Shown here piece after piece: positions 1 through 51,980 of a DNA stretch of 64,000 bases. Both the position numbers and the translations under genes were made by a program. The notes under the pieces were generated by a model. It had not been told where the DNA came from. It did not search any database and worked only from the letters and a program-made list of their open reading frames with translations. The first letter of the stretch is position 1. Each line of letters begins with the position of its first letter. The stretch comes from Trypanosoma brucei (Eukaryota), in contig CP000070.1 of assembly GCA_000002445.1 (NCBI GenBank), positions 96,001 to 160,000 on the forward strand, in the 5' to 3' direction.

Positions 1-1005
1 ATACGGCCTCAATGTTGCAGTTGAGTTCTGAGGACCTGAGGGAGATGTAGTTTCCCTTTCCTCCTTGTATTCACGTGGATACGGCCTCAATGTTGCAGTT
101 GAGTTCTGAGGATCTGAGGGAGATGTAGTTTCCCTTTCCTCCTTGTATTCACGTGGATACGGCCTCAATGTTGCAGTTGAGTTCTGAGGATCTGAGGGAG
201 ATGTAGTTTCCCTTTCCTCCTTGTATTCACGTGGATACGGCCTCAATGTTGCAGTTGAGTTCTGAGGATCTGAGGGAGATGTAGTTTCCCTTTCCTCCTT
301 GTATTCACGTGGATACGGCCTCAATGTTGCAGTTGAGTTCTGAGGATCTGAGGGAGATGTAGTTTCCCTTTCCTCCTTGTATTCACGTGGATACGGCCTC
401 AATGTTGCAGTTGAGTTCTGAGGATCTGAGGGAGATGTACTTTCCCTTTCCTCTCTGTATTCACGTGGATACGGCCTCAATGTTGCAGTTGAGTTCTGAG
501 GATCTGAGGGAGATGTAGTTTCCCTTTCCTCCTTGTATTCACGTGGATACGGCCTCAATGTTGCAGTTGAGTTCTGAGGACCTGAGGGAGATGTACTTTC
601 CCTTTCCTCTCTGTATTCACGTGGATACGGCCTCAATGTTGCAGTTGAGTTCTGAGGACCTGAGGGAGATGTACTTTCCCTTTCCTCCTTGTATTCACGT
701 GGATACGGCCTCAATGTTGCAGTTGAGTTCTGAGGACCTGAGGGAGATGTAGTTTCCCTTTCCTCTCTGTATTCACGTGGATACGGTTTCAATATTGCAG
801 TTGAGTTCTGAGGACCTGAGGGAGATGTAGTTTCCCTTTCCTCCCTGTATTCACGTGGATACGGCCTCAATGTTGCAGTTGAGTTCTGAGGACCTGAGGG
901 AGATGTAGTTTCCCTTTCCTCTCTGTATTCACGTGGATACGGTTTCAATATTGCAGTTGAGTTCTGAGGACCTGAGGGAGATGTACTTTCCCTTTCCTCC
1001 TTGTG
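1..1005 (-). repeat. About 13 near-identical copies of a 78-bp tandem repeat with no spacers. It is coding on the minus strand, with a 26-aa unit EERE(T/S)TSPS(G/D)PQNSTA(T/I)L(R/K)PYPREY(R/K). The array continues past the left window edge.
   Basis: Repeat units start at 1, 79, 157, 235 and so on, and the last partial unit ends near 1005. Only one minus-strand frame is open across all units. The other two minus frames have TGA in every unit, and the + frames have TGA or TAG. Confidence 0.95.
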
Positions 1006-2391
1006 TGAAAAACTTTTTTTTGTCACTGGCGGGACTGGGGAGGCTGCTAATACCACTTTTCCGTTTTCGTCATAATTTTGTCGTTGCGTTTTAGTGTGTT
1101 GAATTGTCTCAGATGCTTTATCGACCCCTGTTTTAGCAGACATGCGGGGTCTAAGGTTTACTGCAGAAACACTGGGATCGTTCATGTTTTCTACCGTTTT
1201 GTTCGCAGCTGGCGGTTGCGACTCGAGACGATTCAAGTACGCTTCAGCTTCGCCTAAATCATCTGATGCTTTATCGGATATAAACCCTCGGAGTATAGGA
1301 TCATCTAAATTTATGTGCTCCACGACCAACGCAACCGCCATATCCACCGGTGGTTTCCTAAGTTTGCTTACCCATGGTCCTTCATACAAAGCATTCACAG
1401 ATGACCATGCGAACAAGCGCCCGCGGTATAGCAAATGTATTATGAACACGTGTAAGTCGTTGCATTCCGTTACGAAGAATTCCACTGGTTGCCCGAAAGA
1501 GGCATCAAATGATTTATTGTGCTCGCGCTTCATGTTGATGCTTCTGTATAGCCTGTGCCTAACTTCATGCAGGACTCGGGGCCCTTGACTTGAAACTACC
1601 TTGTACTCTTCCACACAAACGGTAAATTCGGTAGCTGGTGCGGTGATATCCATATCCTCAATGCCTTTAATGTTTAAACCGTATTTTCCCACACACAGCG
1701 ATGAGGTTTTAACCATTCGATTGAACTCAATAACGCAAACCTCTTCCCTGTTCCGGTTCCGTGTTGCCTCTCCACTGTTTAGTAGTTGATCCACCGCATC
1801 CGCATCCGCAGCCTCACCGAAACCGTCAAACAGCTCTTTTTCCCACTTTCCCGTTTCCGCCTTTCTGACTTTTGCCGGTGGAAGAGTCTCATCGTGATTA
1901 GGTCTGTCGTGCTGCTTTTCTTTCAGAGGTCGAGCCGTTATCGCGGATCTAAGCATGTCTCGTATCAAAGCAATATCTTTTCTCGTGTCCGCAATCACCC
2001 TTTCGTTAAGGGCTGCAGACTCCATTTGCTGAAGTGCCCGCTCCCGCATGTAAAGTTCCCTCGATGGAAGAAAAAGATTCAACCTTTCATTGGGTAGAGG
2101 CCTCAAATGTAACTGGCTGCTGGTCGAACTCACATCACGTCGATTCGTAGAGTTGTGGTTTGCACCTCCAATAATCTTCGGTAAGTCGAATGTGACCTTC
2201 TGAGAAGTTTCCTCATTGTAAAAAGAAACATCACACGACTTAACGGGCGTGGAGACTGCGAAAAGTTGAGACGCCGGAGACTCTTGCAGGTATTTGCCTT
2301 CAATTAGTAAGAAGCACTGAGGGACATGCTGTTGAGGCTTTAAAAAGCGTGAGTCTTCACTTATTCTGCCACAGTTGTCGCATTCACGCAT
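1..2391 (-). CDS. Partial CDS whose 3' end lies beyond the window. The protein has a unique N-terminal domain of about 460 aa that begins MRECDNCGRISEDSRFLKPQQ... and is followed by 26-aa tandem repeats. It is probably a repetitive, antigen-like protein.
   Basis: I translated the minus strand by hand. ATG is at 2391-2389 and an in-frame TAG lies just upstream at 2415-2413. I saw no stop down to position 1. The frame runs continuously into the 78-bp repeat array. The ORF track omits it because the window contains no stop codon for it. Confidence 0.6.
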   Translation of the reverse strand, partial: MRECDNCGRISEDSRFLKPQQHVPQCFLLIEGKYLQESPASQLFAVSTPVKSCDVSFYNEETSQKVTFDLPKIIGGANHNSTNRRDVSSTSSQLHLRPLPNERLNLFLPSRELYMRERALQQMESAALNERVIADTRKDIALIRDMLRSAITARPLKEKQHDRPNHDETLPPAKVRKAETGKWEKELFDGFGEAADADAVDQLLNSGEATRNRNREEVCVIEFNRMVKTSSLCVGKYGLNIKGIEDMDITAPATEFTVCVEEYKVVSSQGPRVLHEVRHRLYRSINMKREHNKSFDASFGQPVEFFVTECNDLHVFIIHLLYRGRLFAWSSVNALYEGPWVSKLRKPPVDMAVALVVEHINLDDPILRGFISDKASDDLGEAEAYLNRLESQPPAANKTVENMNDPSVSAVNLRPRMSAKTGVDKASETIQHTKTQRQNYDENGKVVLAASPVPPVTKKSFSHKEERESTSPSGPQNSTAILKPYPREYREERETTSPSGPQNSTATLRPYPREYREERETTSPSGPQNSTAILKPYPREYREERETTSPSGPQNSTATLRPYPREYKEERESTSPSGPQNSTATLRPYPREYREERESTSPSGPQNSTATLRPYPREYKEERETTSPSDPQNSTATLRPYPREYREERESTSPSDPQNSTATLRPYPREYKEERETTSPSDPQNSTATLRPYPREYKEERETTSPSDPQNSTATLRPYPREYKEERETTSPSDPQNSTATLRPYPREYKEERETTSPSDPQNSTATLRPYPREYKEERETTSPSGPQNSTATLRPY

Positions 2392-3075
2392 TCCCCACCA
2401 GGCAAACAGTCAACTAACTAACTAACCAACCCCAGTTGCGTCCCTCGGTTCCACCAATTGCGTGCAAACCTATTACCAACGTTTGTTTTAACGTGCTCGA
2501 TCCTCACCCTACTACAATGTAAACAATAATAACAACGTCCGGGGAATGGAAACATCAATGTACGCAGGTAAAAATAGGCAATAACAATAACAATAAAAAA
2601 GAGATTTATGCGAGTTAGTGAGACAAAGACCCCATTCCACGTTACTTCCACTGCCACACGTACGGCATACAACCTGCACCGATATCAGCCCCCGCACACA
2701 CGCAGTTAAAATAACAACAGGAAAAAAAAGCGTGAATGGCCATAACAGTCATGGGTTAGGGCACGGCAGTTGCTCTCTCCGGCACGACAATAGACGGTGT
2801 GAGAATAGCCCAACTTCACCCAACAAAAGACAAACAAATTCAACTTTAGAGGGCCCCACCATTTCCCCCTCTTTAAGAGGTTAACGATATTAAATATTGA
2901 AACCGAGACCCGTAAGCAATAAAATAAACGAGCAAATAGAAGATAGCGCAATGTTATTACGATGTGGTCATTCTTCCCTTCTACCTTCCCCGTGTGCGTA
3001 TTTAAATGATTCCCCAAAGTCACTAAGCGGCAGCACTTGTGCCTGTGCAATCATCACCACCTTCATCCAACTCCG

Positions 3076-4146
3076 CTACCCGCCACTGTTCAAAGCAGAG
3101 AGCGGCCCATTTTCATCAAGCACATCAACTTTTGTAAGTTCAACACCGAAACATTCCATGAGCCGCCCCTCAAGCTCACTTCTGCGCTTTTTCCACGTAG
3201 AGGTAATGCGACAAAGTTTACGGTTGGGTGACTCGATTCGAGCCGCAAGTAACTCACCATCTATACGCTGCACTTCCCCTTCAGGGGCGAATGTGGCTTC
3301 CTTCGCCGCAGTGTTGTTAGCATCGAGAAGACGTTTAAGATCTATATGAAACGTACAAGCCCAATCAACCTCAAAACGGGGATGCGTGCTTCGCTCACTC
3401 TGCCCAACGTAGTGACGGAGAGTGTGCATATGTCGCAAAACTAAAATTTCATCACTGCTGTTTCTCTCCTTTCCACACGCACCTCCCTCGGTATAGACAT
3501 AAACTGCCCATGAAACATCTTGCATATGTTTGCACCATGAGAAACGGAGCGCATCAGTAACATGCTGTGTTGAAAAGAAAGCAACAGACTGCACCATGTA
3601 TTGCATCAAGCGCAACGCTTTGCTGTGAACTGTGTATTTGGGTGCATATCCGCCACCGCCGTTTTGGATATTTGTGACCGCATCCGTCTCGCCGCCCGCG
3701 CCACCATTTTCGGTATTTGCTTCAGTGGCACGCATCATGCCACTTTCAAGCAGCACAGTCATGAGAAGCGATGATGAGTCAGGGATGTCTTTTTGCTGCT
3801 TTTCCCATTCAGACTTTATGACGCTTGAGTCTTCCCCACACAACTCTACAAGTAACTCCAGGGATTCGCGAACGCGCTCATTTCTGTCCGAAAAATACTT
3901 GCTTTCGTCTTCCTTATCTTTCAGCACCAATACACTCACATGGTCCTGCTTTTCCCGATAGTAATTATTTCTGTTTGGGGCTGCCACATATACTTGCGTT
4001 CTGGGGAAGTCTCGCGTGACACCTGTGGGATCCTTTCCAATGTCTCCAAGAAGTCGCCCCCTCCAGGATTCCTTTTTTTCATCCATTAATCCAACGAAAC
4101 TGCAACGCACATCCGTTGAGCTTTCGGTTGAACATCCGCTTCCCAT
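3076..4146 (-). CDS. Hypothetical protein of 356 aa. The N-terminus MGSGCS fits an N-myristoylation and palmitoylation consensus.
   Basis: Long minus-strand ORF in the same orientation as its neighbours. The + strand purine-rich tract at 4175-4240 is a polypyrimidine tract on the coding strand, upstream of the ATG. The N-terminus is a Gly2/Cys5/Ser6 motif. Confidence 0.55.
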   Translation of the reverse strand: MGSGCSTESSTDVRCSFVGLMDEKKESWRGRLLGDIGKDPTGVTRDFPRTQVYVAAPNRNNYYREKQDHVSVLVLKDKEDESKYFSDRNERVRESLELLVELCGEDSSVIKSEWEKQQKDIPDSSSLLMTVLLESGMMRATEANTENGGAGGETDAVTNIQNGGGGYAPKYTVHSKALRLMQYMVQSVAFFSTQHVTDALRFSWCKHMQDVSWAVYVYTEGGACGKERNSSDEILVLRHMHTLRHYVGQSERSTHPRFEVDWACTFHIDLKRLLDANNTAAKEATFAPEGEVQRIDGELLAARIESPNRKLCRITSTWKKRRSELEGRLMECFGVELTKVDVLDENGPLSALNSGG

Positions 4147-4174
4147 CGTAACCCTTTCAATACATCAACGAACG

Positions 4175-4240
4175 AACAAAAAAAAAAAAAGAGGATTCGG
4201 AGAAGACAAGAAGGAAAAAGGTAAGGAATAAAGTGACAAA
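4175..4240 (-). promoter_or_regulatory. Polypyrimidine tract on the coding strand, a candidate trans-splicing and polyadenylation signal upstream of the 3076..4146 gene.
   Basis: A run of aaaaaaaaaaaaagaggattcggagaagacaagaaggaaaaaggtaaggaataaag on the + strand corresponds to a C/T-rich tract on the minus strand, 30-90 nt upstream of the ATG. Confidence 0.4.
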
Positions 4241-6081
4241 CCAACGTTTGCAAAACAAGTGCTCCTTCCCGTAGACACCCACGCACACAAACACACACAT
4301 GACTGACATGTGCAGCGGTGTTTGCCCCACAATCACGGGTAAAGTTCTTTTTTCCCCCTTTCTTTTCAACACGGATGCAATGTTAGCAAATCATGTTAAA
4401 ACTAAACAAATTGACATATATTTATATATTTATATATTTATTTATATTTATTTATTAAAGGAGGAACATGTACCGTATCGAGTAGAATGTGGTGGAAGGA
4501 AACGAAGTAGGAGGTGGAAGGTGGTGCCAAAAGAAAAACAACAGGCTACATGGAAACTGGCGCGGGACATAAATTAATCAAACATGAGAAGGAAGGAAAA
4601 TATTGTGGAAAACCAGGCAAAAAAAAATCTTTTTGTGGGCACGTGAGTGCGTTATTTACAAACATGTGGTGCTCGTGTCGAAAAGACAAAAACAAAAAGA
4701 AATTAAACAAAAAAACAAAAAAACAATACTAGTTATAATAGTAACAACATTTGTAACGGTAATAACCGAACATATTCTCTACAGGTTAAAGGGTGGAAAA
4801 AAGAGAGAGAGAGAACGTCGCACAGGAGTGAAAAAACAAAAAAAAAACAACTCGATCCGAAATTCACACAAGCAACAATGATAATAATAAAACATAATAA
4901 AAAAAAACAATATTAACTCAAAACGTTTTCGCATTCACCACCACCAAAACCGCCCTCTTTTCCTCGCTCCTTTTCCTCCTCTCGTCACATTATTGTAAAC
5001 GCCGTGAAATCAAACGCATTAAAATACGCGTAGGGGAGTTACATTCACCACCGTATGAACCGGCAGATATAAATAAAAACATATATATATATATATATAT
5101 GTTTTTATATATATTCATAAATATGTGTGTAAACATACAAACCAGTTACATTTCCAACGCCACACGTCCCAAAGCAATGCAACGGAGACAAAATGTGCAG
5201 AGGTGTCGTTGAGGCAGGGAAATATAAACTCAACACAAGTGAAAACAAGAAAAAAAAATCCGTAAACAACATGCTCAGCAGATAGCAAAGAGGACGAAAA
5301 TGAGCAACACAAATTAGAGGGAGGGGAGGAAGGAAAAAAAAAAGGGAAAACCGCGGAAGCTTATCTTACTTACTTACTTACCCCTTTTTTTTCCATCGGA
5401 TCATACAAAAGGAGCGTTTCAGCCGCCTCTTTTTTCCTTTTTGCTGCTTTGTTTCTCTCATGTAGAAGCTCAGTGCATTTAAGACAAAGAAAAAAGAATG
5501 CGAAAGGATGCATGTACGCATGCTTGTATGTGTGTGTGTGTGTGATTACGTAGCACCGATTCTATATGTCTCGTGGTCGCAAATGAGGAAGTAAACTTCA
5601 AACAATAACAAAAATAAAATAAAATAGAAATCCTAAACGAATAAAAGAAATTGATAGGAGACAGTATGATAACGAAAATGACAAAAATACAGTCCAACCA
5701 AACCAAAGAAGAAAAAAAAAAGAAAGTTTATACACCTTCGTGCCCCTTTTAAACATGTGAAAAAAGCCATTAGCCTCGTGTAACTAATGGTGCCTTCATG
5801 TAAGGGTTCACATTTATTGTGCCTCAACGGACCCGGAGTGCAATGAATACTCAAAATGTGCGCGCAACATTCGAAAAAAAAAATGAGACAACTGGTTCAG
5901 TACTACGTAATCCCGTGGTAGCTATCCACGATAGGGGTGAAAACTGGAAACAAAAAAGAAAACTATTAAAGTATCCAGATTTCAGTACAAAAAAAAAAAG
6001 AATGGGGAAAGGAATTAGAGTCGATGTAAGTCACCACCTCACTAATGGAACGTACCCACAACACACAACATATTACTTCCC

Positions 6082-7326: not shown

Positions 7327-10300
7327 TCAACTTTCACTACTAGCTGGCTTACGGCCAAACAGCCGGTCCCGTTGCTGCACAATCACTTCTAGATTGGGAG
7401 CTTCATCTATTGTGAACTCTTGTGGACACTTAAATGGTTCGGGCCGCCAACGTCGCTCAGTGCCCAACACAACCCGGTCAGCATCGGGAACAACAGGGGG
7501 AACGAAGGAACATGCGAAGGGCACGTGATTAAGTTCTTCCGGCAGACGTGTTGAACTGCCAGTCCCCGAAAGGGCAGCGATGCCACCATACTTTGGAACT
7601 CGTCGTATTGCCCAGTCACTCCATACAATGCGGTCGTCCATACCAGAGGGTGGACACGCAGGCACAGGAGGCAGCAAATCTTTGCGAGTGTAACGTGAAG
7701 GAACTACGCTCTCTGTTGAGTCATCATCATCACCCAGAGGAGGGGAACCCAAGGGAAGCCTTTCCGCACATCTATCTACAATGCGGGAAAAGACACTTGT
7801 CTCTGTGATAACTGGCTTTTGTGGAGGCGCTGATTTCACTTCAGTCTTTTTCTTGAAATCATCCAGCGCAGGGAATGGCGGTGGGGGTGGAGGAATGGCA
7901 GGTCTGAAGTTCGCCGCTCGGACAGCAGCTGCATTGTCGTTCCCACCATCCAGCATTGAAAACAGGTTTGGTGCCCTGATATGTGGCGGGCGTGGAAGGG
8001 TGAAACTTTCGATAGGCTCTGTATTCAGTGGAACAGCGAGACCAATAACAGTTGACGTTACTTCCCACCAAAGTTTAAACGCCTCAACTTCAGCGTCTGG
8101 AGATGCGGGCAACTTCCGTAGTTCGTCAACAGGTGGTAAAGCCGCACACCCGTGTAATGCAAAAGAAGGCCCCTTTCCCATCCCATCTGTCGAGGGGTCA
8201 CAATCCAAAATGGGTCTACCGGCCATGTTTGTAACGATAACAGACCCATCTGCACGGCGGAATAAACCACGTGATACCCACTGACCCTGTGACCAGCAGC
8301 CGGCATACACTTCTCGATTTCTGCCGTAGCGCCTTATTGCAAGCATGCGGCCGCACTTCAACCTCTGGAAGCAGCGATCACACACGCGCTGCTGTCCGTC
8401 CATTTTGAAATGTGGGGGCATAGAGGCACGCGACTGTGAGCAAGCATCGCAAAAAACCTCACCACAAAGACGACAATGATGACGCCGAATGAAAAAGGTA
8501 AATGTAGCACTGCAGAGAGAACAGTGCGATGCCTTGTCGTCGTTCACCATTACAGGTAACATGAAGCAGTCGTCCCGCTCGTTTCCGTTGGCATATGTAG
8601 TTTCATACACAGATTCCGTGGCTGCATCATGAATTGCCACAGAACCACATAAAACACCATTACGCCATTCACCCACAACTGCACATTCACCTGAAAATAA
8701 CTCAAACCCATGACCATGTTGTTTACCGGCGACGAAGTTACCATAATAGACGCTACCTCCAAGAAGCAATTTCCCCATGCCTTCGATACGACCCGACGTG
8801 AACTCACCGCTGTACAAAAATCCGTCATCGTCCTGTAAAATCCCTGAACCGTGCCACACACCATGTTTCCACTCACCATTGTAGCGAGACTTTCCATCTT
8901 TACCACAACCGTATGACTGTCCACGGCCATGTTGACGACCCTTGGAGTCCAACTCTCCATGATATTTGATTGTCTTGAGGGCTCCGTTCTCCCACGTACC
9001 GGCGTAAGCAGTACCATCCGAGCAGCTGTACGCACCTTCACCGTGCCACTTGTCATCTGCAAACCCCCCAGTGTAGGTTTCACCGTTCCAAAGAATCTGC
9101 GTACCGAAACCATGCCTTCGACCCTCCTTGAACCCTCCTAGGTAGTATTCATTTTTTCCCCACCAAAGGGAACCGAAAATGTGTGGGATGGCGGAGGAAA
9201 TGTAACCCTCATAAATAATATACTCATCCTCCTTCGTTTGTGCCCGTGGGTCACAGGTCCCCTGCTCCGTGCCGGTAGTGCACCACAAATCTGGATTCAC
9301 ACTTTCTTCCTTGCCTTCTGGTGTGCTTGGAACTGGAGTTTTCCCATCTTCATCTTCACCACCACCAACAGCACCCGTTTCTTCACCCTCCTGTGAGGCA
9401 CAGTTACAATACCGCATGGGAAGCCAAAGTGTGATGAATTGGGCTTCGAGTTGCAACGTACTAATACAAGTTGTACATGCCTGTAACTGCGATGGAGAGT
9501 TAACTACAGCAGGTGCTTCTGCTTCACTGTCGCCAATAGGCGTTGCCTTACACTGTCGCATCAAAGCCTCCAGCTTCGGGTGATCGCGCAGGTCCAAAGT
9601 GTTGTAACAGGAGTTGCAGCAAACCCGATCACAAATAGCACATTTTAGTTCCTTACGAAAAAATGTGAAGGGTTTCTCGCACACGGCGCAGACTTTGCCA
9701 GTACCGCTTTCTGAGAGAGGTGCTTCACTAATATTTTTTTCGGCGTTCTGCTTTAGAATTTCCCCGTGGTACGGAGCATTAGCTCGATGAGGGAAAACGA
9801 GTTTTGGGTGGCTCTGCACCCAATCGGCACGCATACAGACTCCGGAGTTAAATAGGACAACCCCACTGCCCTCTTGCAGTCCAAGACACATCGTTACAGG
9901 TGGTTTCCCAATAACTACATCGTTCTGCTTTTTCTTCTTTACCTTTGCGACTACGGCAGTGACGTCTGGGGCACTAATGGCAGCTGCTGCACATTGAGCC
10001 ACAAGTAACTGGCATGACGAATAGGGAACGACGGTCGGCCTCCATTCACCACGAAGCAGATAATGCTCATGGCAAACAGTGGTCAGAACTTCACATTCCT
10101 TTTCCCCCTTTAAAGGTTCGTTGCGAAAGAAGCTCGTGAAGAGGGACATCAATGTGTTCGAGCCATCCCTCTGCTCCTCCTTCTGTGACTCAACCTGGTG
10201 TGCCGTATTGGCTGTAGCCAAACATTCCTCGGCAGGGTTGGTGACATTTTTCGTGCTGACGGCGTGGTAGAGCCCAACACCAATAGGAGAATCCAAGCGC

Positions 10301-12015
10301 CAGTCACCAGAAAAGTATGAACCGTCTGTGAACCACATACGACCACCAGGTCCATTGCGAAAACCGTCTTTGAAGCTCCCCACGTATAAATCACCGGATG
10401 GGAACTCCCACGAGCCGGAGTCGCACGAAAGTGTGTCATTTATCCAGTTGCCTATCAGGACGTGACCACACAACCGCAGGACTCCGGGCCCATGACGCAC
10501 GCCCTGGCAAAATACGCCAAAGTGCTCCAACAAAGGAGATGTAGTGACATCCCCAGAAGGGGCTCCATCTCCACTCTTACCAGAGTTACCACCTGCCGGC
10601 AAACTACCGGGAATGCCACCACCTTTACTACCCTTACCCTTATGCGCCAGCAAGTTGCGGAAGACTAAACTTCCAACACCATTGAAACTGACACCATCCC
10701 ATTCACCATCGTAGCCATCGACAAGAACGTCGTTGCGCCAGATTCCCGCCTGAATGGAGCCGTTCTTTCGTTGAAGGATTCCCTCACCCTCCCGGACGTC
10801 GTTAACAAAATTACCGCTATACTCCGAGCCATCGGCATACCGTAAATTTCCGCCCCCGTGACGCATGTTTTTCACGAACGAACCAAAGAAGAAATCACCG
10901 TTTTCGTACCAAACGAGGCCGCGCCCCTGCCGCATCTCACCAACCCACTCTCCCTGGTAGCATATTCCACCGTCGGCGGGCACCCGGTGCCAAAACATTG
11001 TTCCGTGCTTCCGCTCCCCGTTTTCGAAAACGCCCACAAACGTGGACACACCCGGGTACTTCACCACACCTTTGCCGTGTATGAGACCTTGCACAAAGTC
11101 TCCCTCTACAATCGCACCAAGTTTATGCAAGGTTGACTTACCTTCACCATGGCGTAGTCCACCTTTCCACATTCCTTCGTATATGTCACCATTCTTGTAG
11201 CGCATAGTGCCGCGCCCCTCGATCTTATCGTTACTGAAGTTGCCAAAGTATTCATCTCCATTGGGGTAACGCATGCAGCCTTCACCGTCACGCTTACCGC
11301 GCACCAACATCCCCTTAAACTCCCCACCATCCACATAACTAACCTTTCCGCCTCCATGCCGCTCATCCTTCAACCATTCACCGTCGTACACCTCGCCACT
11401 CGCACACTCAAGGCGCCCACGTCCGTGACGAGAATTCGAATTGAACTCCCCCTTGTAAACGTCTCCGTTAGCGTATCGCAAAATACCACGTCCGTGCCGG
11501 TGATAAGTGTGATGAAAATCCCCTTCATACTCCTTTGGTGGGTGGGTGAGTTCGTACTGTGAAACAGGAACAACACCGCGTTTGGATACTTCTCCCGGCC
11601 TGCGCTTATAAGTTATTTTTCCGCGACCGCACATCCTGCCACTGTTGAACTCACCCTCATATGTAAAACGGGTTGTATTAAGTACACCCTCTCCATGAAA
11701 AGCGCCGTTAGCCCAACGCCCCCCATACCGGTCCCCGCTGCCATATATGGATGAAGTATCCTTGAAGATAACAATTCCAAGACCGTGTGGTTTGTCGAGC
11801 AGCATGTCACCATAATATTCACTTCCATCCGGCAGTGTGTGGGGTGACAGGTTTTCTTGTTTTGCCGGATCAAACTCGGTTACCTTCTGAAGAGTCACTG
11901 GTAGGGTGAGGACAGGGGAGGCGTTAAAAAAAGCTGGCGGAGCAGGTGTGGGGTACTCGTTCCGTGTTAAAATCTCGGAATTATTACTACTACTATTGTT
12001 ATTGTTATCGGGCAT
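7327..12015 (-). CDS. Large protein of 1562 aa with multiple MORN repeats and two FYVE-type zinc fingers.
   Basis: Many Y-x-G-x-(F/W)-x-x-G-x-(R/K)-H-G-x-G MORN units appear in two blocks. FYVE-like segments are [28 protein letters not shown] and [29 protein letters not shown]. A proline-rich run PPPPPPFP sits at the C-terminus. Confidence 0.85.
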   Translation of the reverse strand: [1562 protein letters not shown]

Positions 12016-15465: not shown

Positions 15466-16983
15466 TTACATTCTGTCAATGTAATCATAATTCCATACAT
15501 TTACCCGGTGATCACCACCAGAGGACAAAATAAATTTCTTTTCCTTGCTAAAGGCAATGCGATAAACAAACCTTCGGTGCGCCACGGCTCGCCAAAGCGG
15601 CTCTCCAGTCATGGCATCTGTGAGTCGCATGTTATCATCCCGTCCACATGAAAGTATAGCTCGACCTCTGGGAGTAAACTTAACCATATGAACTGGTTTT
15701 TCGTGGTGCCGCAGCAGCAGCGTTGGAGATGATGAGTTCCTAATGTCCCAAACACGTATGACACCGTCTATCCCGCAGGAAGCGAATACTTGCTCATCAT
15801 TACGGAGGGCGCAGCACCACACAGTAGATGCATGATCAATGAACCGATCTATGACACAGTCGCCGCCGCTGCGGAGATCATGAGCGTAAATTATGTTATC
15901 ATCCCCCGCAGAAAGGGCGAAGTGGTTGTTTAGATCAGATGTCACAACCGTAAACACGGAGGCGGCGCTACACCCAATGGTTTGTACGCATGTGCTGGTA
16001 GATGCATCCCATATACGGACCGTACAGTCCATAGACGCCGTCGCGACACGGTCATCGCCTAAAAGAAAGTCCACACCATACACTTTTCGTTGGTGCCCGG
16101 AGAATACGCAACTCGTGGATCCGTCAACGCTGTGCATTGACGCTGTACAGTCGGAGCGCCCAGCCACCACGTGCCTTTCGTCGTGCGAAAGCGCATTAGA
16201 TAAGACAACACTATCTTGTACATCGAATTCTGCAGTAACCTCGGCCGTTTTCAGATCCCACCGCAACATTTGTGCCTTCGTGCCAGAAAACACCGTTGTA
16301 CCATTGCTGGTGAGAGACATGGCATACGAAGTTGTCTTTTCTGTTAAAATAGAACGCACCAGGTTCGGTACCTTCTCTGGTTCTGCCTTGGTGGTGGTGG
16401 CACTCCCTACATCGTGGACGGCATTCTCTTCAGATTCGAACAATTCCATGGGTGAGGGTGTTTCACGTGGCGAGTCTTCCGCAAAGGGATCATTGGGCAC
16501 CTTACGCTTTTCCTGGTACGTTGTAGTGCCGTTGGATACTTCAACCTCCACTCGCTTGACTTGACGCGGGCGGGCATTACTTCCTGCACACAAGTGCTCC
16601 ATTTTAACCAAATTGACGGTACACATACGTTTTTTCACGACAACGAGACATTCCGTCATATTGGAGCGCCGGGCCTCATCGAGCCTCTCACAGGCATCAG
16701 GTGGGTACAGTTCCCATTCACCGGGCATGTCAAGATCCTCTACAAACCACGCGAATTTTCTCGTTGAATCGTCCGGCGCGTCGTCGTCTTCCGGTGGCGG
16801 TGGTAAATCCTCCTGAATACATAATGGGATGGTAACATATCCAATTCCATTAAAGCGAGGTTCACCAACACGTCGCTTCGTTTGAAGTCGCCGAACACTG
16901 CGGTCCGTGGAAACTTGCCTGGCGCTGGTTGCTTTTTTCCGCGGTATGCTTCCACCGCCACCCATTATTAGTAGTATACACAC
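15466..16983 (-). CDS. WD40-repeat protein with an N-terminal WWE-like domain, 505 aa. The likely start is the MGGGGS methionine near 16965.
   Basis: A WWE-like segment reads FAWFVEDLDMPGEWELYPPDACERLDEA...CTVNLVKMEHL. WD repeats end in RIWD, RVWD and VNVWN, as in CTVRIWDASTS and DGVIRVWDIRN. Confidence 0.75.
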   Translation of the reverse strand: MCILLIMGGGGSIPRKKATSARQVSTDRSVRRLQTKRRVGEPRFNGIGYVTIPLCIQEDLPPPPEDDDAPDDSTRKFAWFVEDLDMPGEWELYPPDACERLDEARRSNMTECLVVVKKRMCTVNLVKMEHLCAGSNARPRQVKRVEVEVSNGTTTYQEKRKVPNDPFAEDSPRETPSPMELFESEENAVHDVGSATTTKAEPEKVPNLVRSILTEKTTSYAMSLTSNGTTVFSGTKAQMLRWDLKTAEVTAEFDVQDSVVLSNALSHDERHVVAGRSDCTASMHSVDGSTSCVFSGHQRKVYGVDFLLGDDRVATASMDCTVRIWDASTSTCVQTIGCSAASVFTVVTSDLNNHFALSAGDDNIIYAHDLRSGGDCVIDRFIDHASTVWCCALRNDEQVFASCGIDGVIRVWDIRNSSSPTLLLRHHEKPVHMVKFTPRGRAILSCGRDDNMRLTDAMTGEPLWRAVAHRRFVYRIAFSKEKKFILSSGGDHRVNVWNYDYIDRM

Positions 16984-27399: not shown

Positions 27400-29001
27400 T
27401 TAGAGCCAGTCCTTTTCGGACTCACCCCGAACGCATTTGGCTATCGGAAACCGCGGCACATCCTGTGACGAAAGTTCCTGATACTGAACTGTTAAATACT
27501 TACCTAGTAGACGGTCTCTTTCGGCCCATAGTTCCAACCGCCGCTTTGTTGTAGTCTTTGGTGTTGCATTGAAGCGAATCCCAGTTGATGTTTCACACAC
27601 AAACGCGCCGAGACCACCCTCAAACTTGCCATTGCCCGGAAGAAAGTCGACAATGCGGTACTCCGCATCATGCATGTACTTATACTTAAGAAGACCGAGA
27701 CTTCGTTTGCCATGTTCGTAAGGAAACTTTGGTCTACGAATGATTACCCCTTCATAACCTTGCGAACACGCCTTCTCCAATACACTCTCCACCTCATCTG
27801 GACTCACAAGTGTGGCGGGGACGTGGTAGAGTTTTGGTATCTTTTTCCTGCTCGACAATTCCTCCTTTTCAAGCTGATGGTTTCGCCTTCCGTTTGGTTT
27901 CATCGTATCAAAAACACGATCTGCGCCACTGTGAGGTATGAGTTCCTTCAGTAAACGGTAGCGTTCGCTAAAAGGGGCGTCCGGCGATGAGAGCTGATCT
28001 GAAGCCATGATGTCAAATGCAAAATATTCTAGGAGTTTCGCCTGTTTCCTCCGCGTTGTTTGTGTCGTAAACTTTTCCAAACGGCGCACAAGCCCACTAA
28101 GCCTCTCGAAACCGCAGTGTGGAGCAAACAGCTCCCCATCTAACAACAAAGATGGATCTGCCTTGAACAGCGGCATAGCGTGTGGCACCAAACCATGGCA
28201 ACACTCAAGAAGAATCCCACTCCGCGAAAAAAACTGCAATTTCTTTTGGGATTTATTGTAACCAATTAAACAGCGAATTCCATCTATCTTTGGTGAAACC
28301 AGAAGTGATTCCTGCTCCTCCGTGTCAGCCGGATGAAGTAGTTCCTCAGCAACTAGCTCCCATCTTTGTGCAAGCATGGGAAGAATGTTACGTCCCTCCC
28401 ACTCGGGGTTGCTGTGCAGAACACTTTTATAATTTGTGTGAGTCATTCGTGGTGCTCTCAAACTGTTCACATCCTCCAGCTCCAGATCCTCCTCATTTGT
28501 AGCATCCGTTGGTGAAGTTGTTATCCCCACATCTGTGTTATCTCCCTCGCTCATCTTGCCATTAATTCTTTCCGGACCTTCATTTCTAGTTGAACTGATC
28601 CGCCGCTGCTCTTTTCCGCACAATGGACACGTCCCATGCTGGTCAATAAATCTCGCAATACTCATCTCAAACTCCTGAAGGCACTGGCTGCAACGCCACA
28701 CCGCCGACTTTACACATGTCGGGGCCACGTGATGTGGAGTTAACATGACGGTTCCCCACGATGGACCCACCCAACAGGCTGCAAGATGGGGAAAAGCACT
28801 TTCAATGGTGGTATTTTTCATTGCGTGATACCGCTCCACCTGCTCTGGTGTACGCGGCCTCCCAACACCAAAAAAAAGCGAAGGATCCTTCGGAAGAGTT
28901 GTGAGCTGCGGACGCCGCCATAAATTAGAAATCCGCCACATGTCTAAAGGCGATGAGGTGACAAAAAAGGGAGGAGGGATTTCGAAAAGGTGTTTAAACA
29001 C
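27400..29001 (-). CDS. LIGk: ATP-dependent DNA ligase of the kinetoplastid mitochondrial (LIG k) type, 533 aa.
   Basis: Adenylation motif I is SPKIDGIRCLIGY (KxDG). Motif V is GYEGVIIRRP. The conserved C-terminus reads LTVQYQELSSQDVPRFPIAKCVR. The N-terminus has a zinc ribbon WRCSQC...CPLCGK. It is paralogous to the adjacent gene. Confidence 0.85.
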   Translation of the reverse strand: MFKHLFEIPPPFFVTSSPLDMWRISNLWRRPQLTTLPKDPSLFFGVGRPRTPEQVERYHAMKNTTIESAFPHLAACWVGPSWGTVMLTPHHVAPTCVKSAVWRCSQCLQEFEMSIARFIDQHGTCPLCGKEQRRISSTRNEGPERINGKMSEGDNTDVGITTSPTDATNEEDLELEDVNSLRAPRMTHTNYKSVLHSNPEWEGRNILPMLAQRWELVAEELLHPADTEEQESLLVSPKIDGIRCLIGYNKSQKKLQFFSRSGILLECCHGLVPHAMPLFKADPSLLLDGELFAPHCGFERLSGLVRRLEKFTTQTTRRKQAKLLEYFAFDIMASDQLSSPDAPFSERYRLLKELIPHSGADRVFDTMKPNGRRNHQLEKEELSSRKKIPKLYHVPATLVSPDEVESVLEKACSQGYEGVIIRRPKFPYEHGKRSLGLLKYKYMHDAEYRIVDFLPGNGKFEGGLGAFVCETSTGIRFNATPKTTTKRRLELWAERDRLLGKYLTVQYQELSSQDVPRFPIAKCVRGESEKDWL

Positions 29002-30092: not shown

Positions 30093-31541
30093 TTAAACCC
30101 AATCACTACCAGTCTTTGTGCCTCGTACGCACTTCCCAATAGGAAACCGTGGGACACCATTTGTTGAAAGCTCTTGATACTGCACAGTGAGCATTTTCCC
30201 CTTGTACACATTCAGTCGATGCCACATCTCACGTTTCCTCTCTTCTGTCGTCGCTGGCGCTACGGTGAAGCGGTGACCGGCACGTGTTTGACAGACGAAT
30301 GCACCCAAGCAACCGCGCCACTTTCCCTTCCCTTCCACGCCGTCAACAATAATATATTCGCTGTCTTGCATAAGTTTGTACTTCAGCAAGTTGGGCGAGC
30401 GGGCCCCATATGCGTAACCAGGCACTGCAGCTGAGGCGCCACCACTACTCGAAACAGAAGTCATGCATTTATTGTCCTCAATACCATTACGGCGAATCAT
30501 GATACCTTCATACCCTCGATCAACATTGAGTCTCAGCAGACGGTCTATATCCGATTTTTTTGCCGACATGACGGGAACTAATTTGACTACTTTTCTGCGG
30601 CCCTGTCCCTTTCCGGAGTTGATCTTTTGCATCAAGTCACAAAGATGTTTGTAGCGCTGTCCAAAGGGCACTACCGTCATGTGAGGAAATTCTTTTGCGT
30701 AAAGAAGATCGAATACATGATATTGCAACTGCTGCTGCACCTTCTCAATTCCCGCTGTGCGGTGTTGCCTCGTTGTTCGTATGGCTGATGTCAGCTGTTC
30801 AAAGTCACTTGCATCATGATTGTACAATTCACCATCTAACACTAACATATTGTCCTTTTCGAATAGAGGTCGCAGCTGCGGTTCAATGTGATCACAACAA
30901 TCAAATAACATCCCGGAACGGCTAAAGAAACTCAAGCACCTATCTCTCAAATTCCACGCAACGACACAGCGTACGCCGTCGAGTTTGGGGGAGACAAAAA
31001 GCTGTTCATCATTTGATATCCTTTTAACCTCTTTATCATAATTGCGCGCCAGCATTGGAAGAAGGTTTCGTGTTTCCGATACACGCAGGTATCCGTTATC
31101 GGCAATACTATTCTTTACCCTACTAGCATTCGGTGCATCGAGTATTGCGAGAGAATTATCGGGTCTACAACGATGTTTAACTGTTGCTGCTAATGTGTTG
31201 TCTGACGTTCTGGAACTACTGGCGCTTCTTTTTCTTGAACACGTCAATGTTGGCATGCGGGAACACTTCGGGCAGGCACCACCGGCAGCCACGTGGAGGT
31301 CAATACGTTTCGGGTGTTGATGCTCACAATAAGGACAGCGCCACCACGCTAGTTTACGGCTAGAAGGCAACACATGTTGGGGTTGCAGTAACTTATTGCA
31401 GGCAGCTGTGATCCACGTTTGCGCAATGGTGGGGTGAAACTGTGCCAAGTTTTTCGCCAATGATGCGCTGCGGGAGGAGCGGGAGAGGAAGGGCACCGTG
31501 GTGGCGAAGAGTGACGACAAACATGGGCGACTAAACCGCAT
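30093..31541 (-). CDS. LIGk: Second ATP-dependent DNA ligase of LIG k type, 482 aa, a tandem paralogue of the previous gene.
   Basis: Motif I is SPKLDGVRCVVAW. Motif V is GYEGIMIRRNG. The C-terminus LTVQYQELSTNGVPRFPIGKCVR is shared with its neighbour. The N-terminus has a zinc ribbon WWRCPYC...CPKCSR. Confidence 0.85.
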   Translation of the reverse strand: MRFSRPCLSSLFATTVPFLSRSSRSASLAKNLAQFHPTIAQTWITAACNKLLQPQHVLPSSRKLAWWRCPYCEHQHPKRIDLHVAAGGACPKCSRMPTLTCSRKRSASSSRTSDNTLAATVKHRCRPDNSLAILDAPNASRVKNSIADNGYLRVSETRNLLPMLARNYDKEVKRISNDEQLFVSPKLDGVRCVVAWNLRDRCLSFFSRSGMLFDCCDHIEPQLRPLFEKDNMLVLDGELYNHDASDFEQLTSAIRTTRQHRTAGIEKVQQQLQYHVFDLLYAKEFPHMTVVPFGQRYKHLCDLMQKINSGKGQGRRKVVKLVPVMSAKKSDIDRLLRLNVDRGYEGIMIRRNGIEDNKCMTSVSSSGGASAAVPGYAYGARSPNLLKYKLMQDSEYIIVDGVEGKGKWRGCLGAFVCQTRAGHRFTVAPATTEERKREMWHRLNVYKGKMLTVQYQELSTNGVPRFPIGKCVRGTKTGSDWV

Positions 31542-41639: not shown

Positions 41640-43040
41640 TTACAATAGAAGACCAAACTCGCGCAGCATCACTACAGCAGGGTTGGTAAAACTCATGTCA
41701 TACCAATAGTTCACAGCTGCGATAAGCGGAAGGGGCGCAGAATGTTTTTGATCATGCCGTGAAACTTTAGCAATTTCTTCAGTCGACGCTTCCTCAATCA
41801 CTCGGCTATCCTCAGAATCTGCGTGTTGCGCCACACGGTGCAACCACAAAGCAGGAAGGTACAACACCTCACCAGGTTGCACGTACGCAATGAGTGGATG
41901 CAATTTGTCACGCAGCTCCTCTTTAATGTGCAGCGGGTCATCAACTGCAGCAGGTGTAAGCTCCACATCCATCCACGGCACCGACGTTCCGTCACGCGTG
42001 GGACTATCAGAAAATATGTATTCCTCTTCACCTTCTTTACAATTCGCTGCGGCTTTGAGGGTAAATGCTGCCGCTGGAAGTTCCGGCTTGGGCACAAACA
42101 CGCCTTCCCATGGAGGAACTAATATGAACTCCTTCACACCGCGCACAACCGCGTAAAGGTTCTCTACCCAGTCTTGATGCATTGATGAGACGGAGGCGGG
42201 TGTGCCAAGCCAAATATTAGCGGCCTCACGTTTACCTCCAAATACCCGAGTACCAAAGCGGTCCAATGCGGTGTCGATATCAGCATGGAGATGTTGGTAC
42301 TCCTCCGCAAGACAATTATTTTGCATTTGTGCGTATGCGATCGAACGTTGCGGCCGACGGAGGTCGACAAACTGGGATTTCAATGGAGGGACAAGTGGAT
42401 TTGCACGCAGCAGTCTGTACAACTCAGGCAGCGTCACTCGTAGCTCTGCGGCACTCATGAACAGCTTTTCGGTTACTACGAAGTCACTTTTACCTTCAAG
42501 TTTATCATGTACCTGTGACTCATTCTTTACAGCGTTGTACGTTACATATGTTACGGCGTCAGCCCGACCGTTAGGCGTCAATGCAACCGTCACGCGCCGA
42601 GGTCCCAACGTCCCTTGTGATTCCGCTTCATTATTACTGGTGCCATTCTTACTGTCCTCTGCATCCGATTCCGTCACAATCTCTTCATCCTCATGGAAGC
42701 TATCATTTTCATTAATTTCTCCATTCCCTTTACTGGTTCTTTCCTTCTCATACACCATGGGAAGTTTTTCATCCAGATCAAACAAATATCGGTCGTCCCG
42801 CCACCGCTGCAACGCCGGCCAATCACACAGCGCCCCCACAATGATGCATGGGCGGGAGTGAAACACAAACTCTCGCATAAACTCCTGTTCGGTTAACATT
42901 CTGAACTTTTCCTCGTCGCACGCGTTCCCACGACTGAGGCCATCGACACGTATTCTTTCGATGTTAAACTGCTGAAGCGCCTTTGAGGTCTCTGCGAAGG
43001 CTTCTGCAACTGTCAGCGTCTGCGCCTTTTCATTTGGCAT
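41640..43040 (-). CDS. JmjC-domain (cupin) protein of 466 aa, similar to JMJD7/HSPBAP1.
   Basis: The JmjC core is IWLGTPASVSSMHQDWVENLYAVVRGVKEFILVPP...PGEVLYLPALWLHRV. The HxD...H metal-binding pattern is present. Confidence 0.75.
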   Translation of the reverse strand: MPNEKAQTLTVAEAFAETSKALQQFNIERIRVDGLSRGNACDEEKFRMLTEQEFMREFVFHSRPCIIVGALCDWPALQRWRDDRYLFDLDEKLPMVYEKERTSKGNGEINENDSFHEDEEIVTESDAEDSKNGTSNNEAESQGTLGPRRVTVALTPNGRADAVTYVTYNAVKNESQVHDKLEGKSDFVVTEKLFMSAAELRVTLPELYRLLRANPLVPPLKSQFVDLRRPQRSIAYAQMQNNCLAEEYQHLHADIDTALDRFGTRVFGGKREAANIWLGTPASVSSMHQDWVENLYAVVRGVKEFILVPPWEGVFVPKPELPAAAFTLKAAANCKEGEEEYIFSDSPTRDGTSVPWMDVELTPAAVDDPLHIKEELRDKLHPLIAYVQPGEVLYLPALWLHRVAQHADSEDSRVIEEASTEEIAKVSRHDQKHSAPLPLIAAVNYWYDMSFTNPAVVMLREFGLLL

Positions 43041-50455: not shown

Positions 50456-51370
50456 GTCCGGAGTTGCAGGCTTTTGATTATTTAATTAATTATTATTTTT
50501 TTTTTTTTTGGTTCGCTACTACCTGTAAAGATTTTGGGGGGCGCCGTCATAAACGGTGGCCGTGTCTCATGCGTAGAACATATCAATAGACAGGAAAGTG
50601 AGAGTAAAGGTGGTAGTGTGAAATCATGAAGTTCCATGAATTAAGCATTTCAGATGCTCATGCATTCTGGGCGAACCCCACATAAGTGCCTTTTTCTTAT
50701 CCTGCTTTTACTCAGCGTTAATATGAAATTATCACATGAGTACTGCAGAACAGTCATCAGCCAACTAGTAAGTAAGTAAGTAACATATCAATGATAACTG
50801 TTAAACATGAACCAGCCGGAGCCAACACTTCCATCGACAAGTGGTTGGAGGTTATGCAGAGATAGATGAGGCCAAAACACTACAACCCTTCAGTGTAACA
50901 GAATGCGATAAGATTCAAAGGTTATTGACATTACGCCATCGACATCTTTCCAACTGCGAAGCCGCTAGTCAAACAGTGAGATATTGCAATGCGCCACATA
51001 ACCATTAACCTTTGTTCATTTTCTCATACCACCACCAAACCAACAAAAGACATTAGAAAATGCGCCTCCCTCTCTTATCAGTATTCTTCTTCCAGATTCA
51101 ATATATCACCCGAAATGTAATTACCAACGGTGATGAAGCGTAGTAACACAAACACTACAAATGGGAGTCGAGCTGCTTCACACGATACCTCTTTACACAA
51201 AACAAATTTAATCAACCGCTACACGAGAAACGAGGTGGTGGCTGCCACATATATGTGGAATAAATAAAAAAAAAAGGAATACTCTCAAGGTTAGTAACGA
51301 GTAAAAGCAAAGAAATACACAACATGTAGCCGGAGGAAAACTTAGTTATTATAAATACATATATACATAT

Positions 51371-51406
51371 ATATTGATATTGATATTGATATAGATATAG
51401 ATATCC
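51371..51406. repeat. Short hexamer repeat (GATATT/GATATA)n.
   Basis: The sequence atattgatattgatattgatatagatatagatatc. Confidence 0.85.
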
Positions 51407-51942
51407 AGCACTTCCATTAACTCTCAAGAGTCTATGAACTACCAATAAAAGTAAATAAACTTACATGACATGCCCACAAAACACGCTGAGGGGGCGGATG
51501 TTACGGACAAAATGAAAAGTACGCTAAAGCATATGACGATGTTCTTTTTGAAACCTACATTTCATTTGGCACACACCGCATAAGAACTCATTCATAACTT
51601 AAAACTAAAGGGATGGAAAAAAAAAAGTCACGCTGAAGCGAAAAGAAGAGAAGAAAAGAGAAGAGAGTGTTTTTTTTTTTAAAAAAGTGAACTACTCCTG
51701 AAGTGCATGTAAAAACAGAAAGAGGACCGAAAAAACTGACCAAAACAGTGAGTGATGATAAGAAAACAAAGGTGGAGAATTCGCTGCTTTGAAATAAAAA
51801 GAAAACAAAAAAACAATGAACCAAAAATATCGCGGCAAACGCCTTCATACACTGCAGAAATGTCAATTAATATGAAAAGTTCACTGGAGAGGGTGTTCAC
51901 ATAGAAAGGAAATAAGTTGTATTCACAGCGACAATTGTAATG

Positions 51943-51980
51943 ATAATAATAATAATAATAATAATGGTAATAATATTAGT
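51943..51980. repeat. (AAT)n microsatellite. A second copy lies at about 52249-52273.
   Basis: The sequence gataataataataataataataatggtaataat. At 52249 the sequence is tataataataataataataataat. Confidence 0.85.

What the first reader, a model, noticed from the sequence alone, without database searches (positions are those of the whole stretch)
1..2391. A coding 78-bp tandem repeat reveals a repeat-antigen-like gene that the ORF track missed
The first 1 kb is about 13 copies of a 78-bp unit.
- The unit length is exactly 26 codons.
- Only one of the six frames is open through every unit, the minus-strand frame.
- That frame is continuous with a roughly 460-aa non-repetitive N-terminal domain that starts at ATG 2391 and begins MRECDNCGRISEDSRF...
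- The encoded unit EERE(T/S)TSPS(G/D)PQNSTA(T/I)L(R/K)PYPREY(R/K) is Ser/Thr/Pro-rich. Trypanosomatids are known to carry repetitive, often immunodominant, proteins of this sort.
- The ORF track shows only mirror-image + strand fragments (1142..2097) and a 69-aa repeat ORF, because the real gene has no stop codon inside the window.
- The array length and the C-terminus are unknown.
Basis: seen in the sequence. Interest (0 to 1): 0.6.

Follow-up and report, generated by a model that had tools for sequence, protein, structure and literature searches.

The report
Known trypanosome gene with coding repeats
The 78-base repeat is the middle of a real Trypanosoma brucei gene that public databases already annotate as a conserved protein of unknown function, so the sequence observation is correct but the gene is not new and nothing yet shows it is an antigen.

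Summary
Window 1..1004 holds 12.9 indel-free copies of a 78-bp unit. Only one minus-strand frame is open, and it runs unbroken from ATG 2391 to the window edge (797 codons).

The gene is not new. Those 797 codons are 100% identical to residues 1-797 of XP_845674.1 / Q57U04, "hypothetical protein, conserved", T. b. brucei TREU927, 1571 aa. From neighbouring gene numbers I infer it is Tb927.7.500. The ORF list missed it only because it drops ORFs that run off the window.

The full protein has a 464-aa N-terminal part, 18 full and one partial 26-aa units, and a conserved C-terminal part of about 620 aa. Annotated copy number is 19 in TREU927, 16 in T. b. gambiense and 7 in T. b. equiperdum.

Orthologues exist in T. 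congolense, T. vivax, T. grayi, T. conorhini and Leptomonas. None carries this repeat. It sits in a hypervariable linker between conserved all-beta domains that a modest-confidence model places in the C2 fold (AIDA/DOCK/PI3K type).

There is no signal peptide or membrane segment. "Repeat antigen" is untested here. Function is uncharacterised in the literature I could search.

The parts
1..999 (-). In-frame 78-bp (26-codon) tandem array: 12 full units plus a 63-nt partial unit at the window edge. These encode residues 465-797 of the protein. In the TREU927 protein record the array continues for about 6 more units beyond the window.
1000..2391 (-). Non-repeat N-terminal coding region, 464 codons from ATG 2389-2391. 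It is 100% identical to XP_845674.1 residues 1-464.
2314..2382 (-). Residues 4-26: a possible zinc-finger motif of C-x2-C...H...C form (C4, C7, H22, C26). The N-terminal CxxC lines up with T. conorhini and Leptomonas, whose H/C ligand spacing differs.
   Evidence: Alignment. Weak profile match to a consensus C2H2 finger, 1mey, E=0.013. Pfam zf-C2H2 E=0.07 in the Leptomonas orthologue, below threshold. UniRef names the T. conorhini orthologue 'C2H2-type domain-containing'.
1936..2061 (-). Residues 111-152: a long predicted helix, a possible coiled coil.
   Evidence: Single-sequence AF2 secondary structure, at low confidence. The ELYMRE motif at its start is conserved.
1207..1719 (-). Residues about 225-395: conserved domain D1, all-beta, probably a C2-like beta-sandwich.
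   Evidence: Conserved in all 7 orthologues. In the model of the T. congolense orthologue it has 9 strands at pLDDT 60-80. The model's fold matches are all C2 domains.
1000..1206 (-). Residues 396-464: the start of the non-conserved, hydrophilic linker that leads into the repeats.
   Evidence: Alignment.
2410..2412 (-). In-frame TGA that closes the reading frame upstream of the start codon.
2509..2610 (-). Pyrimidine-rich tract (about 2604-2521) followed by AG dinucleotides at 2513-2512 and 2510-2509. This is a candidate spliced-leader acceptor about 120 nt upstream of the ATG. It is inferred, not shown.
   Evidence: Sequence read. The inference rests on the known architecture of trypanosome trans-splice sites.

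Best explanation
Identity. Window 1..2391 (minus strand) is the 5' half of the T. b. brucei TREU927 chromosome-7 gene that encodes XP_845674.1 / Q57U04. I infer this is Tb927.7.500. It is annotated as a 1571-aa (177 kDa) conserved hypothetical protein.

Architecture. The protein belongs to a family seen here only in kinetoplastids. In order it has:
- a short N-terminal Cys/His zinc-finger-like motif;
- a long helix;
- a conserved all-beta domain, D1;
- a hypervariable, disordered linker;
- a conserved C-terminal region of about 560 aa with at least one further beta-sandwich, D2, and a third region, D3, that carries a PI3K-C2-like sequence motif.

Fold (inferred at moderate confidence). The beta domains fold as C2 domains of the AIDA/DOCK/PI3K type.

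The repeat. It is a T. brucei-specific expansion inside the linker. Each unit is hydrophilic and rich in Pro, Glu, Ser, Thr and Arg, and carries one S-P site. The array grows and shrinks in whole 78-bp units. The likely mechanisms are unequal recombination or replication slippage (inferred). The array is homogenised within each lineage.

Most likely role (inferred). The array acts as a length-variable flexible spacer, possibly phosphorylated, between the N-terminal module and the C-terminal C2-like modules of a cytoplasmic scaffold or membrane-docking protein. It could also be a B-cell epitope array after parasite lysis, as with other intracellular trypanosomatid repeat proteins. That was not tested.
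For: Shown:
- The 797 window codons are 100% identical to residues 1-797 of P0010 (XP_845674.1, TREU927).
- All but two of the 22 ORFs of 200 aa or more lie on the minus strand, the two plus-strand ones lying inside minus-strand ORFs, as in a trypanosomatid polycistron.
- The neighbours are Tb927.7.530 (FYVE/MORN) and the kDNA ligases Tb927.7.600 and Tb927.7.610.
- The gene number follows from its neighbours. Tb927.7.510 is Q57U03 at 39.995 kDa, and the adjacent ORF has exactly that mass. The Tb927.7.480 (Q57U06) S883 peptide lies in the 934-aa gene two genes downstream.
- Array copies at DNA level are 15.8 in gambiense and 6.7 in equiperdum. Annotated units are 19, 16 and 7 in TREU927, gambiense and equiperdum. 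All arrays are whole-unit and indel-free.
- Units are homogenised by lineage: mostly TLR in TREU927, ILK in gambiense and TLK in equiperdum.
- Orthologues were found in six other taxa.
- The repeat is absent from every non-brucei orthologue. T. grayi (12 aa, about 4 copies) and T. vivax (39 aa, 2 copies) have unrelated repeats in the same linker.
- In the AF2 model of the T. congolense orthologue, D1 and D2 are all-beta at pLDDT 60-80.
- Foldseek gives AIDA-C2 at E=3.6e-4.
- Pfam PI3K_C2 matches D3 weakly in 2 of 5 orthologues.
- There is no membrane segment (highest 19-residue Kyte-Doolittle mean 1.36). The repeat region has GRAVY -1.87 and 19 S/T-P sites.
Against: - No Pfam family reaches threshold on any orthologue.
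- The structural model is weak overall (mean pLDDT 47, pTM 0.31, 6-sequence alignment), and it is of the T. congolense orthologue, not the T. brucei protein.
- I could not tell which domain produced the C2 matches.
- hhalign finds no sequence relationship among D1, D2 and D3.
- I found no expression, localisation or phosphorylation data for this gene in the literature or supplements I could search.
- The spacer and docking roles are inference only.
- Copy numbers come from assemblies that may have collapsed the array.
Confidence: 0.85

Rival explanations
1. It is a surface or secreted mucin-like repeat antigen. The Ser/Thr/Pro-rich units with NST sequons would be glycosylated and displayed to the host.
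For: Composition of the units, with 19 N-x-S/T sequons in the array. Trypanosomatids are known to have such proteins (general knowledge).
Against: - The N-terminus is polar (MRECDNCGRISEDSRF). There is no signal peptide and no hydrophobic segment anywhere (highest 19-residue Kyte-Doolittle mean 1.36).
- The C-terminus is a conserved globular region, not a GPI signal.
- Orthologues carry cytosolic-type C2-like domains and a zinc-finger-like motif.
Confidence: 0.03
2. It is an intracellular tandem-repeat B-cell antigen of the K39, GM6 or MARP kind. The array would be immunodominant in infected hosts, which is the reader's interpretation in its weaker form.
For: A long, nearly perfect in-frame array with a high TRF score. 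It is hydrophilic and probably disordered. Many known trypanosomatid repeat antigens are intracellular (general knowledge; the GM6 literature was seen).
Against: No serological or expression data were found for this gene. The repeat is confined to T. brucei and varies from 7 to 19 copies, which says nothing either way. This reading is compatible with the best explanation rather than exclusive of it.
Confidence: 0.25
3. It is a non-coding minisatellite that happens to be open in one frame, or a decaying pseudogene.
For: In T. b. equiperdum CM010678.1 the locus has a 1-bp deletion (window-equivalent position 1760) and a CAA>TAA stop. It is annotated there as three separate genes.
Against: - The frame is intact over 1571 codons in TREU927 and 1493 codons in DAL972.
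- Arrays differ only by whole 78-bp units with no indels.
- The flanking domains are conserved as far as Leptomonas.
- T. equiperdum OVI reads Gln at the stop position.
- The neighbouring ORF in the same equiperdum assembly also has a 1-bp deletion, so assembly error is plausible.
Confidence: 0.03
4. The copy number, and perhaps part of the unit pattern, is an assembly artefact: the array was collapsed or expanded, so differences between strains are not biological.
For: T. equiperdum OVI has only a 614-aa fragment starting right after the array, on a 14-kb contig. This suggests the array breaks short-read assemblies. The three arrays come from different sequencing technologies.
Against: Each assembly has its own dominant unit variant (TLR, ILK, TLK). 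That is hard to produce by collapse alone.
Confidence: 0.3

Closest known systems
XP_845674.1 / Q57U04 (inferred Tb927.7.500), 'hypothetical protein, conserved', T. b. brucei TREU927; orthologue XP_011774339.1 in T. b. gambiense DAL972
   Same: Identical over all 797 codons in the window. The flanking genes are the same.
   Different: Nothing differs. The window simply stops inside the array.
Trypanosomatid tandem-repeat antigens (Leishmania K39 kinesin, Trypanosoma GM6, MARP)
   Same: A long, nearly perfect in-frame array within an intracellular protein. It is hydrophilic, and copy number varies between strains.
   Different: There is no sequence similarity. No serology or expression evidence exists for this gene. 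The repeat lies in a linker between globular domains rather than forming a cytoskeleton-binding repeat.
AIDA-C2, DOCK DHR-1 C2 and PI3K C2 domains (C2 superfamily)
   Different: About 10-14% sequence identity. Every match is below the Pfam threshold. There is no kinase, GEF or AIDA N-terminal domain. Lipid binding is untested.
Multi-C2 centriolar or ciliary scaffolds (CEP120, CFAP70), and T. brucei CC2D, a coiled-coil plus C2 protein of the flagellum attachment zone that I recall from memory
   Different: No sequence homology was detected. The domain order differs. Localisation is unknown. This resemblance is a lead, not a test.

Membership tests
Orthologue group of T. brucei XP_845674.1 (inferred Tb927.7.500) | Sequence identity and conserved gene neighbourhood | tested here: met
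   100% identity over 797 aa. DNA is 98.5% identical to T. b. equiperdum chromosome 7 across 11 kb. Gene order is the same in gambiense.
Trypanosomatid tandem-repeat B-cell antigens | Long in-frame, near-identical tandem array | tested here: met
   TRF score 1833, 12.9 copies in the window and 19 units in the full protein.
Trypanosomatid tandem-repeat B-cell antigens | Recognised by sera from infected hosts | not testable with these tools
   No serology was found in the literature searched.
Trypanosomatid tandem-repeat B-cell antigens | Protein expressed in mammalian-stage parasites | not testable with these tools
   The gene, the accession and the repeat peptide are absent from the stored (truncated) supplements of two phosphoproteomes, TrypTag and two transcriptome papers.
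Surface or secreted mucin-like glycoproteins | Signal peptide and a membrane or GPI anchor signal | tested here: not met
   Polar N-terminus. The highest 19-residue Kyte-Doolittle mean is 1.36. The C-terminus is hydrophilic (...KKDVRFVDGE).
C2 domain superfamily (AIDA/DOCK/PI3K type) | Eight-stranded beta-sandwich fold | tested here: met
C2 domain superfamily (AIDA/DOCK/PI3K type) | Sequence match to a curated C2 family above threshold | tested here: not met
   Best match is PF00792 PI3K_C2 at E=0.09-0.2 and 12-13 bits, against a cut-off of 26.4.
C2 domain superfamily (AIDA/DOCK/PI3K type) | Phospholipid or membrane binding | not testable with these tools
   Needs a lipid overlay or liposome assay.
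C2H2-type zinc finger | C-x2-C ... H ... H/C ligand pattern and a match to the family profile | tested here: inconclusive
   An N-terminal C-x2-C followed by H and C is present in T. brucei, T. conorhini and Leptomonas, with varying spacing. The profile matches the 1mey consensus finger at E=0.013. Pfam zf-C2H2 gives E=0.07, below threshold.

The most novel reading that the evidence does not exclude
The gene would define an unrecognised kinetoplastid-specific scaffold family with a zinc-finger-like motif, a coiled coil and up to three AIDA/DOCK/PI3K-type C2 domains. Its inter-domain linker has acquired unrelated tandem repeats independently in several Trypanosoma lineages: 26 aa x 7-19 in T. 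brucei, 12 aa x about 4 in T. grayi and 39 aa x 2 in T. vivax. Linker length or phosphorylation would then be a selected, rapidly tunable property. Alternatively, the array could be an immunodominant decoy or diagnostic epitope specific to T. brucei.
Probability: 0.2. Interest if true: 0.45.

Novelty: already known. Interest (0 to 1): 0.22.

Why it matters
For genome annotation it matters little. The gene, its full length and its repeat are already in GenBank and UniProt for TREU927 and DAL972.

Three points may be of modest use:
- An ORF caller that drops edge-running ORFs will miss genes like this one.
- The coding minisatellite varies in copy number and in dominant unit among T. brucei subspecies. 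It could therefore serve as a strain-typing marker, or as a candidate T. brucei-specific serological target if the protein is expressed and antigenic.
- The protein is currently a conserved hypothetical with no Pfam domain. The C2-like fold assignment gives a testable starting point (membrane or phosphoinositide docking) for a protein family seen here only in kinetoplastids.

Tried and rejected
- Pfam on the window protein and on five orthologues: no family above threshold.
- Word-index protein search with the N-terminal part, the downstream ORF and an alignment: it returned only T. brucei sequences.
- Single-sequence AF2 of the N-terminal 462 aa: unusable, pLDDT 35.
- The afdb50 fold library was unavailable.
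- Profile search of PDB sequences: only a weak zinc-finger match.
- hhalign of D1, D2 and D3 against each other: no internal homology, E=0.2-0.3.
- Exact look-up of the TREU927 protein's contig: not on record, so I could not read TREU927 DNA to the left of the window. I used the protein record and the gambiense and equiperdum loci instead.
- Literature: no main text mentions Tb927.7.480-520 except through neighbouring genes. The tandem-repeat antigen papers I found do not list this gene. Stored supplements of TrypTag, two phosphoproteomes, spliced-leader trapping and the single-nucleotide transcriptome hold no entry for it, but those files are truncated, so this absence proves nothing.
- Rfam on the window, and TRF on 5000-64000 (min score 80): nothing else.
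- Rejected readings: surface mucin (no signal peptide or membrane segment) and non-coding minisatellite (the frame and the flanking domains are conserved).
Full report
**Observation**

Tandem Repeats Finder reports one array at window 1..1004: period 78, 12.9 copies, 96% matches, no indels, score 1833.

In coding register the array is 12 full units plus a 63-nt partial unit, at 999..1 on the minus strand. Stop codons in 1..1004 number 26, 13 and 9 in the three plus frames and 13, 12 and 0 in the minus frames. Exactly one frame is open.

That frame continues without interruption into 464 non-repeat codons that start at ATG 2389-2391, giving 797 codons to the window edge. An in-frame TGA at 2410-2412 closes it upstream.

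The ORF list shows only plus-strand fragments here, because the tool omits ORFs that run off the source.

**What it is**

All but two of the 22 ORFs of 200 aa or more lie on the minus strand, and those two lie inside minus-strand ORFs. This is the layout of a trypanosomatid polycistronic unit.

An exhaustive HMMER search with the 462 N-terminal residues found a 1493-aa T. b. gambiense protein at 99% identity, plus five more distant kinetoplastid proteins. The gambiense cluster contains XP_845674.1 / AAZ12115.1 / Q57U04, "hypothetical protein, conserved", T. b. brucei TREU927, 1571 aa. The window's 797 codons are 100% identical to its residues 1-797. The window is therefore TREU927 chromosome 7, or an identical sequence, and the gene is already annotated.

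The neighbours fix the position:
- The FYVE/MORN gene at 7327-12015 is Tb927.7.530.
- The tandem kDNA ligases at 27400-29001 and 30093-31541 are Tb927.7.600 and Tb927.7.610.
- The ORF at 3076-4146 has a computed mass of 39.995 kDa. That is exactly the value given for Tb927.7.510 / Q57U03 in the supplement of PMC6907760.
- The Tb927.7.480 / Q57U06 phosphosite peptide (S883) lies in the 934-aa gene two genes downstream.

By gene order and accession order the target, Q57U04, is Tb927.7.500. This is an inference.

**Full anatomy**

The TREU927 protein has 464 N-terminal residues, 18 full and one partial 26-aa units (residues 465 to about 952), and a C-terminal region of about 620 aa. It weighs 177 kDa. 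It has no hydrophobic segment that could be a signal peptide or membrane span: the highest 19-residue Kyte-Doolittle mean is 1.36.

The repeat region has GRAVY -1.87 and is 70% Glu, Pro, Thr, Ser and Arg. It carries 19 S/T-P sites and 19 N-x-S/T sequons. Without a secretory signal, those sequons are unlikely to be glycosylated (inference).

Upstream of the ATG, a pyrimidine-rich tract (about 2604-2521) is followed by AG dinucleotides at 2513-2512 and 2510-2509. This is a plausible trans-splice acceptor, but I have no transcript data.

**Variation among strains**

| Record | Copies at DNA level | Annotated units | Dominant variant at unit positions 17-19 |
|---|---|---|---|
| TREU927 | not readable beyond the window | 19 | TLR |
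| T. b. gambiense DAL972 | 15.8 | 16 | ILK |
| T. b. equiperdum CM010678.1 | 6.7 | 7 | TLK |

All arrays are free of indels. The lineage-specific dominant variant is the pattern expected from homogenisation by unequal exchange or slippage (inference).

Within the window's array, 7 nucleotide columns vary. Five are at codon position 2, and the five variable codons all change the amino acid conservatively: S/T, G/D, I/T, K/R, K/R.

Outside the array, TREU927 and gambiense differ at 11 sites in 1392 nt, 6 synonymous and 5 not.

In the equiperdum assembly the gene is annotated as three pieces (238, 529 and 469 aa). The causes are a 1-bp deletion (window-equivalent position 1760) and a CAA>TAA change. 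T. equiperdum OVI reads Gln at that codon. The neighbouring Tb927.7.510 also has a 1-bp deletion in the same assembly. I cannot separate real decay from assembly error.

**Orthologues and domains**

Orthologues exist in T. congolense (878 aa), T. vivax (a 550-aa partial model), T. grayi (856 aa), T. conorhini (960 aa) and Leptomonas seymouri (1389 aa). The alignment shows these parts:
- An N-terminal C-x2-C...H...C motif in T. brucei, T. conorhini and Leptomonas. Support for a zinc finger is weak: E=0.013 to the 1mey consensus finger and Pfam zf-C2H2 E=0.07.
- A conserved ELYMRE-helix segment.
- Conserved domain D1, T. brucei residues about 225-395, which lies inside the window.
- A linker that does not align between species.
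- A conserved C-terminal region of about 560 aa.

The 26-aa repeat is found only in T. brucei. T. grayi has about four copies of an unrelated 12-aa unit (PAKEEAPLAPT-) in the same linker. T. vivax has a 39-aa duplication there. T. congolense, T. conorhini and Leptomonas have no repeat.

No Pfam family reaches threshold on any orthologue.

**Fold**

Single-sequence AF2 of the N-terminal part failed, with pLDDT 35.

AF2 of the T. congolense orthologue with the 6-sequence alignment is poor overall (mean pLDDT 47, pTM 0.31). It does give two all-beta domains at pLDDT 60-80. These are residues 73-220 and 363-486, which correspond to D1 and D2.

Fold matches to that model:

| Search | Match | Score |
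|---|---|---|
| Foldseek | AIDA-C2 | E=3.6e-4 |
| Foldseek | DOCK, PI3K | E about 1e-3 |

D3 carries the only, and weak, sequence hint: PF00792 PI3K_C2 over the "GW..LK.F...G..R.GRYAL..F" segment, at E=0.09-0.2 in two of five orthologues. hhalign finds no relationship among D1, D2 and D3 at sequence level.

I conclude, at moderate confidence, that the family carries two and possibly three C2-like beta-sandwiches of the AIDA/DOCK/PI3K type. Membership of any curated C2 family by sequence was tested and not met.

**How it most likely works**

Shown: this is an intact, conserved, intracellular-type multi-domain protein, and in T. brucei its inter-domain linker is a length-variable tandem array.

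Inferred: the array is an intrinsically disordered spacer, possibly phosphorylated at proline-directed sites. It separates an N-terminal zinc-finger and helix module from the C-terminal C2-like modules, and those modules dock to membranes or partner proteins. The array changes length by unequal recombination or slippage.

Nothing here tests it. The surface-mucin version is contradicted by the lack of any secretory or anchoring signal.

**Novelty and verdict**

The gene, its repeat and its full length are already in public annotation. Repeat-containing proteins are a familiar feature of trypanosomatid genomes.

What this analysis adds:
- the likely C2-like fold for a protein with no Pfam domain;
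- the placement of the repeat in a repeat-prone linker;
- the copy-number and unit-variant differences among subspecies.

Interest is low to modest.

Noticed in passing
window 3076-4146 (-): A 356-aa ORF with no Pfam match. It is Tb927.7.510 / Q57U03 (39.995 kDa) and was detected in a published proteome. It starts MGSGCS, which looks like an N-myristoylation motif (Gly2) with a nearby Cys for palmitoylation. It is not called in T. b. equiperdum CM010678.1, where a 1-bp deletion sits at window-equivalent position 3391.
   Followed up: partly
L001 9264-13042 (T. b. equiperdum CM010678.1): The orthologue of the target gene is split into three annotated genes by a 1-bp deletion and a CAA>TAA stop. 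T. equiperdum OVI reads Gln at that codon. Real pseudogenisation in a tsetse-independent lineage and assembly error could not be told apart.
   Followed up: partly
P0005 (T. grayi) residues about 243-290; P0004 (T. vivax) residues 476-530: Unrelated tandem repeats (12 aa x about 4 in T. grayi, 39 aa x 2 in T. vivax) occupy the same inter-domain linker as the T. brucei 26-aa array. The linker appears to be repeat-prone. The T. vivax gene model ends just after its repeat and is probably truncated.
   Followed up: partly
window 27400-29001 and 30093-31541 (-): Two tandem ATP-dependent DNA ligase genes, each with a treble-clef zinc-finger N-terminus. These are the mitochondrial kDNA ligases LIG k-beta and LIG k-alpha (Tb927.7.600 and Tb927.7.610).
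   Followed up: partly
window 4001-6000 and 50001-54000: Low-GC stretches (0.37-0.40) that are A-rich on the plus strand (AT skew up to +0.26). They lie in long intergenic regions of the minus-strand gene cluster and include short AT and poly-T microsatellites that differ in length from T. b. equiperdum.
   Followed up: no
window 15893-16564 (+) and 42202-42861 (+): Plus-strand ORFs of 223 and 219 aa lie wholly inside minus-strand genes (a WD40 protein and a Cupin_8 protein). They are probably antisense mirror ORFs, like those over the target gene at 1142-2097.
   Followed up: no
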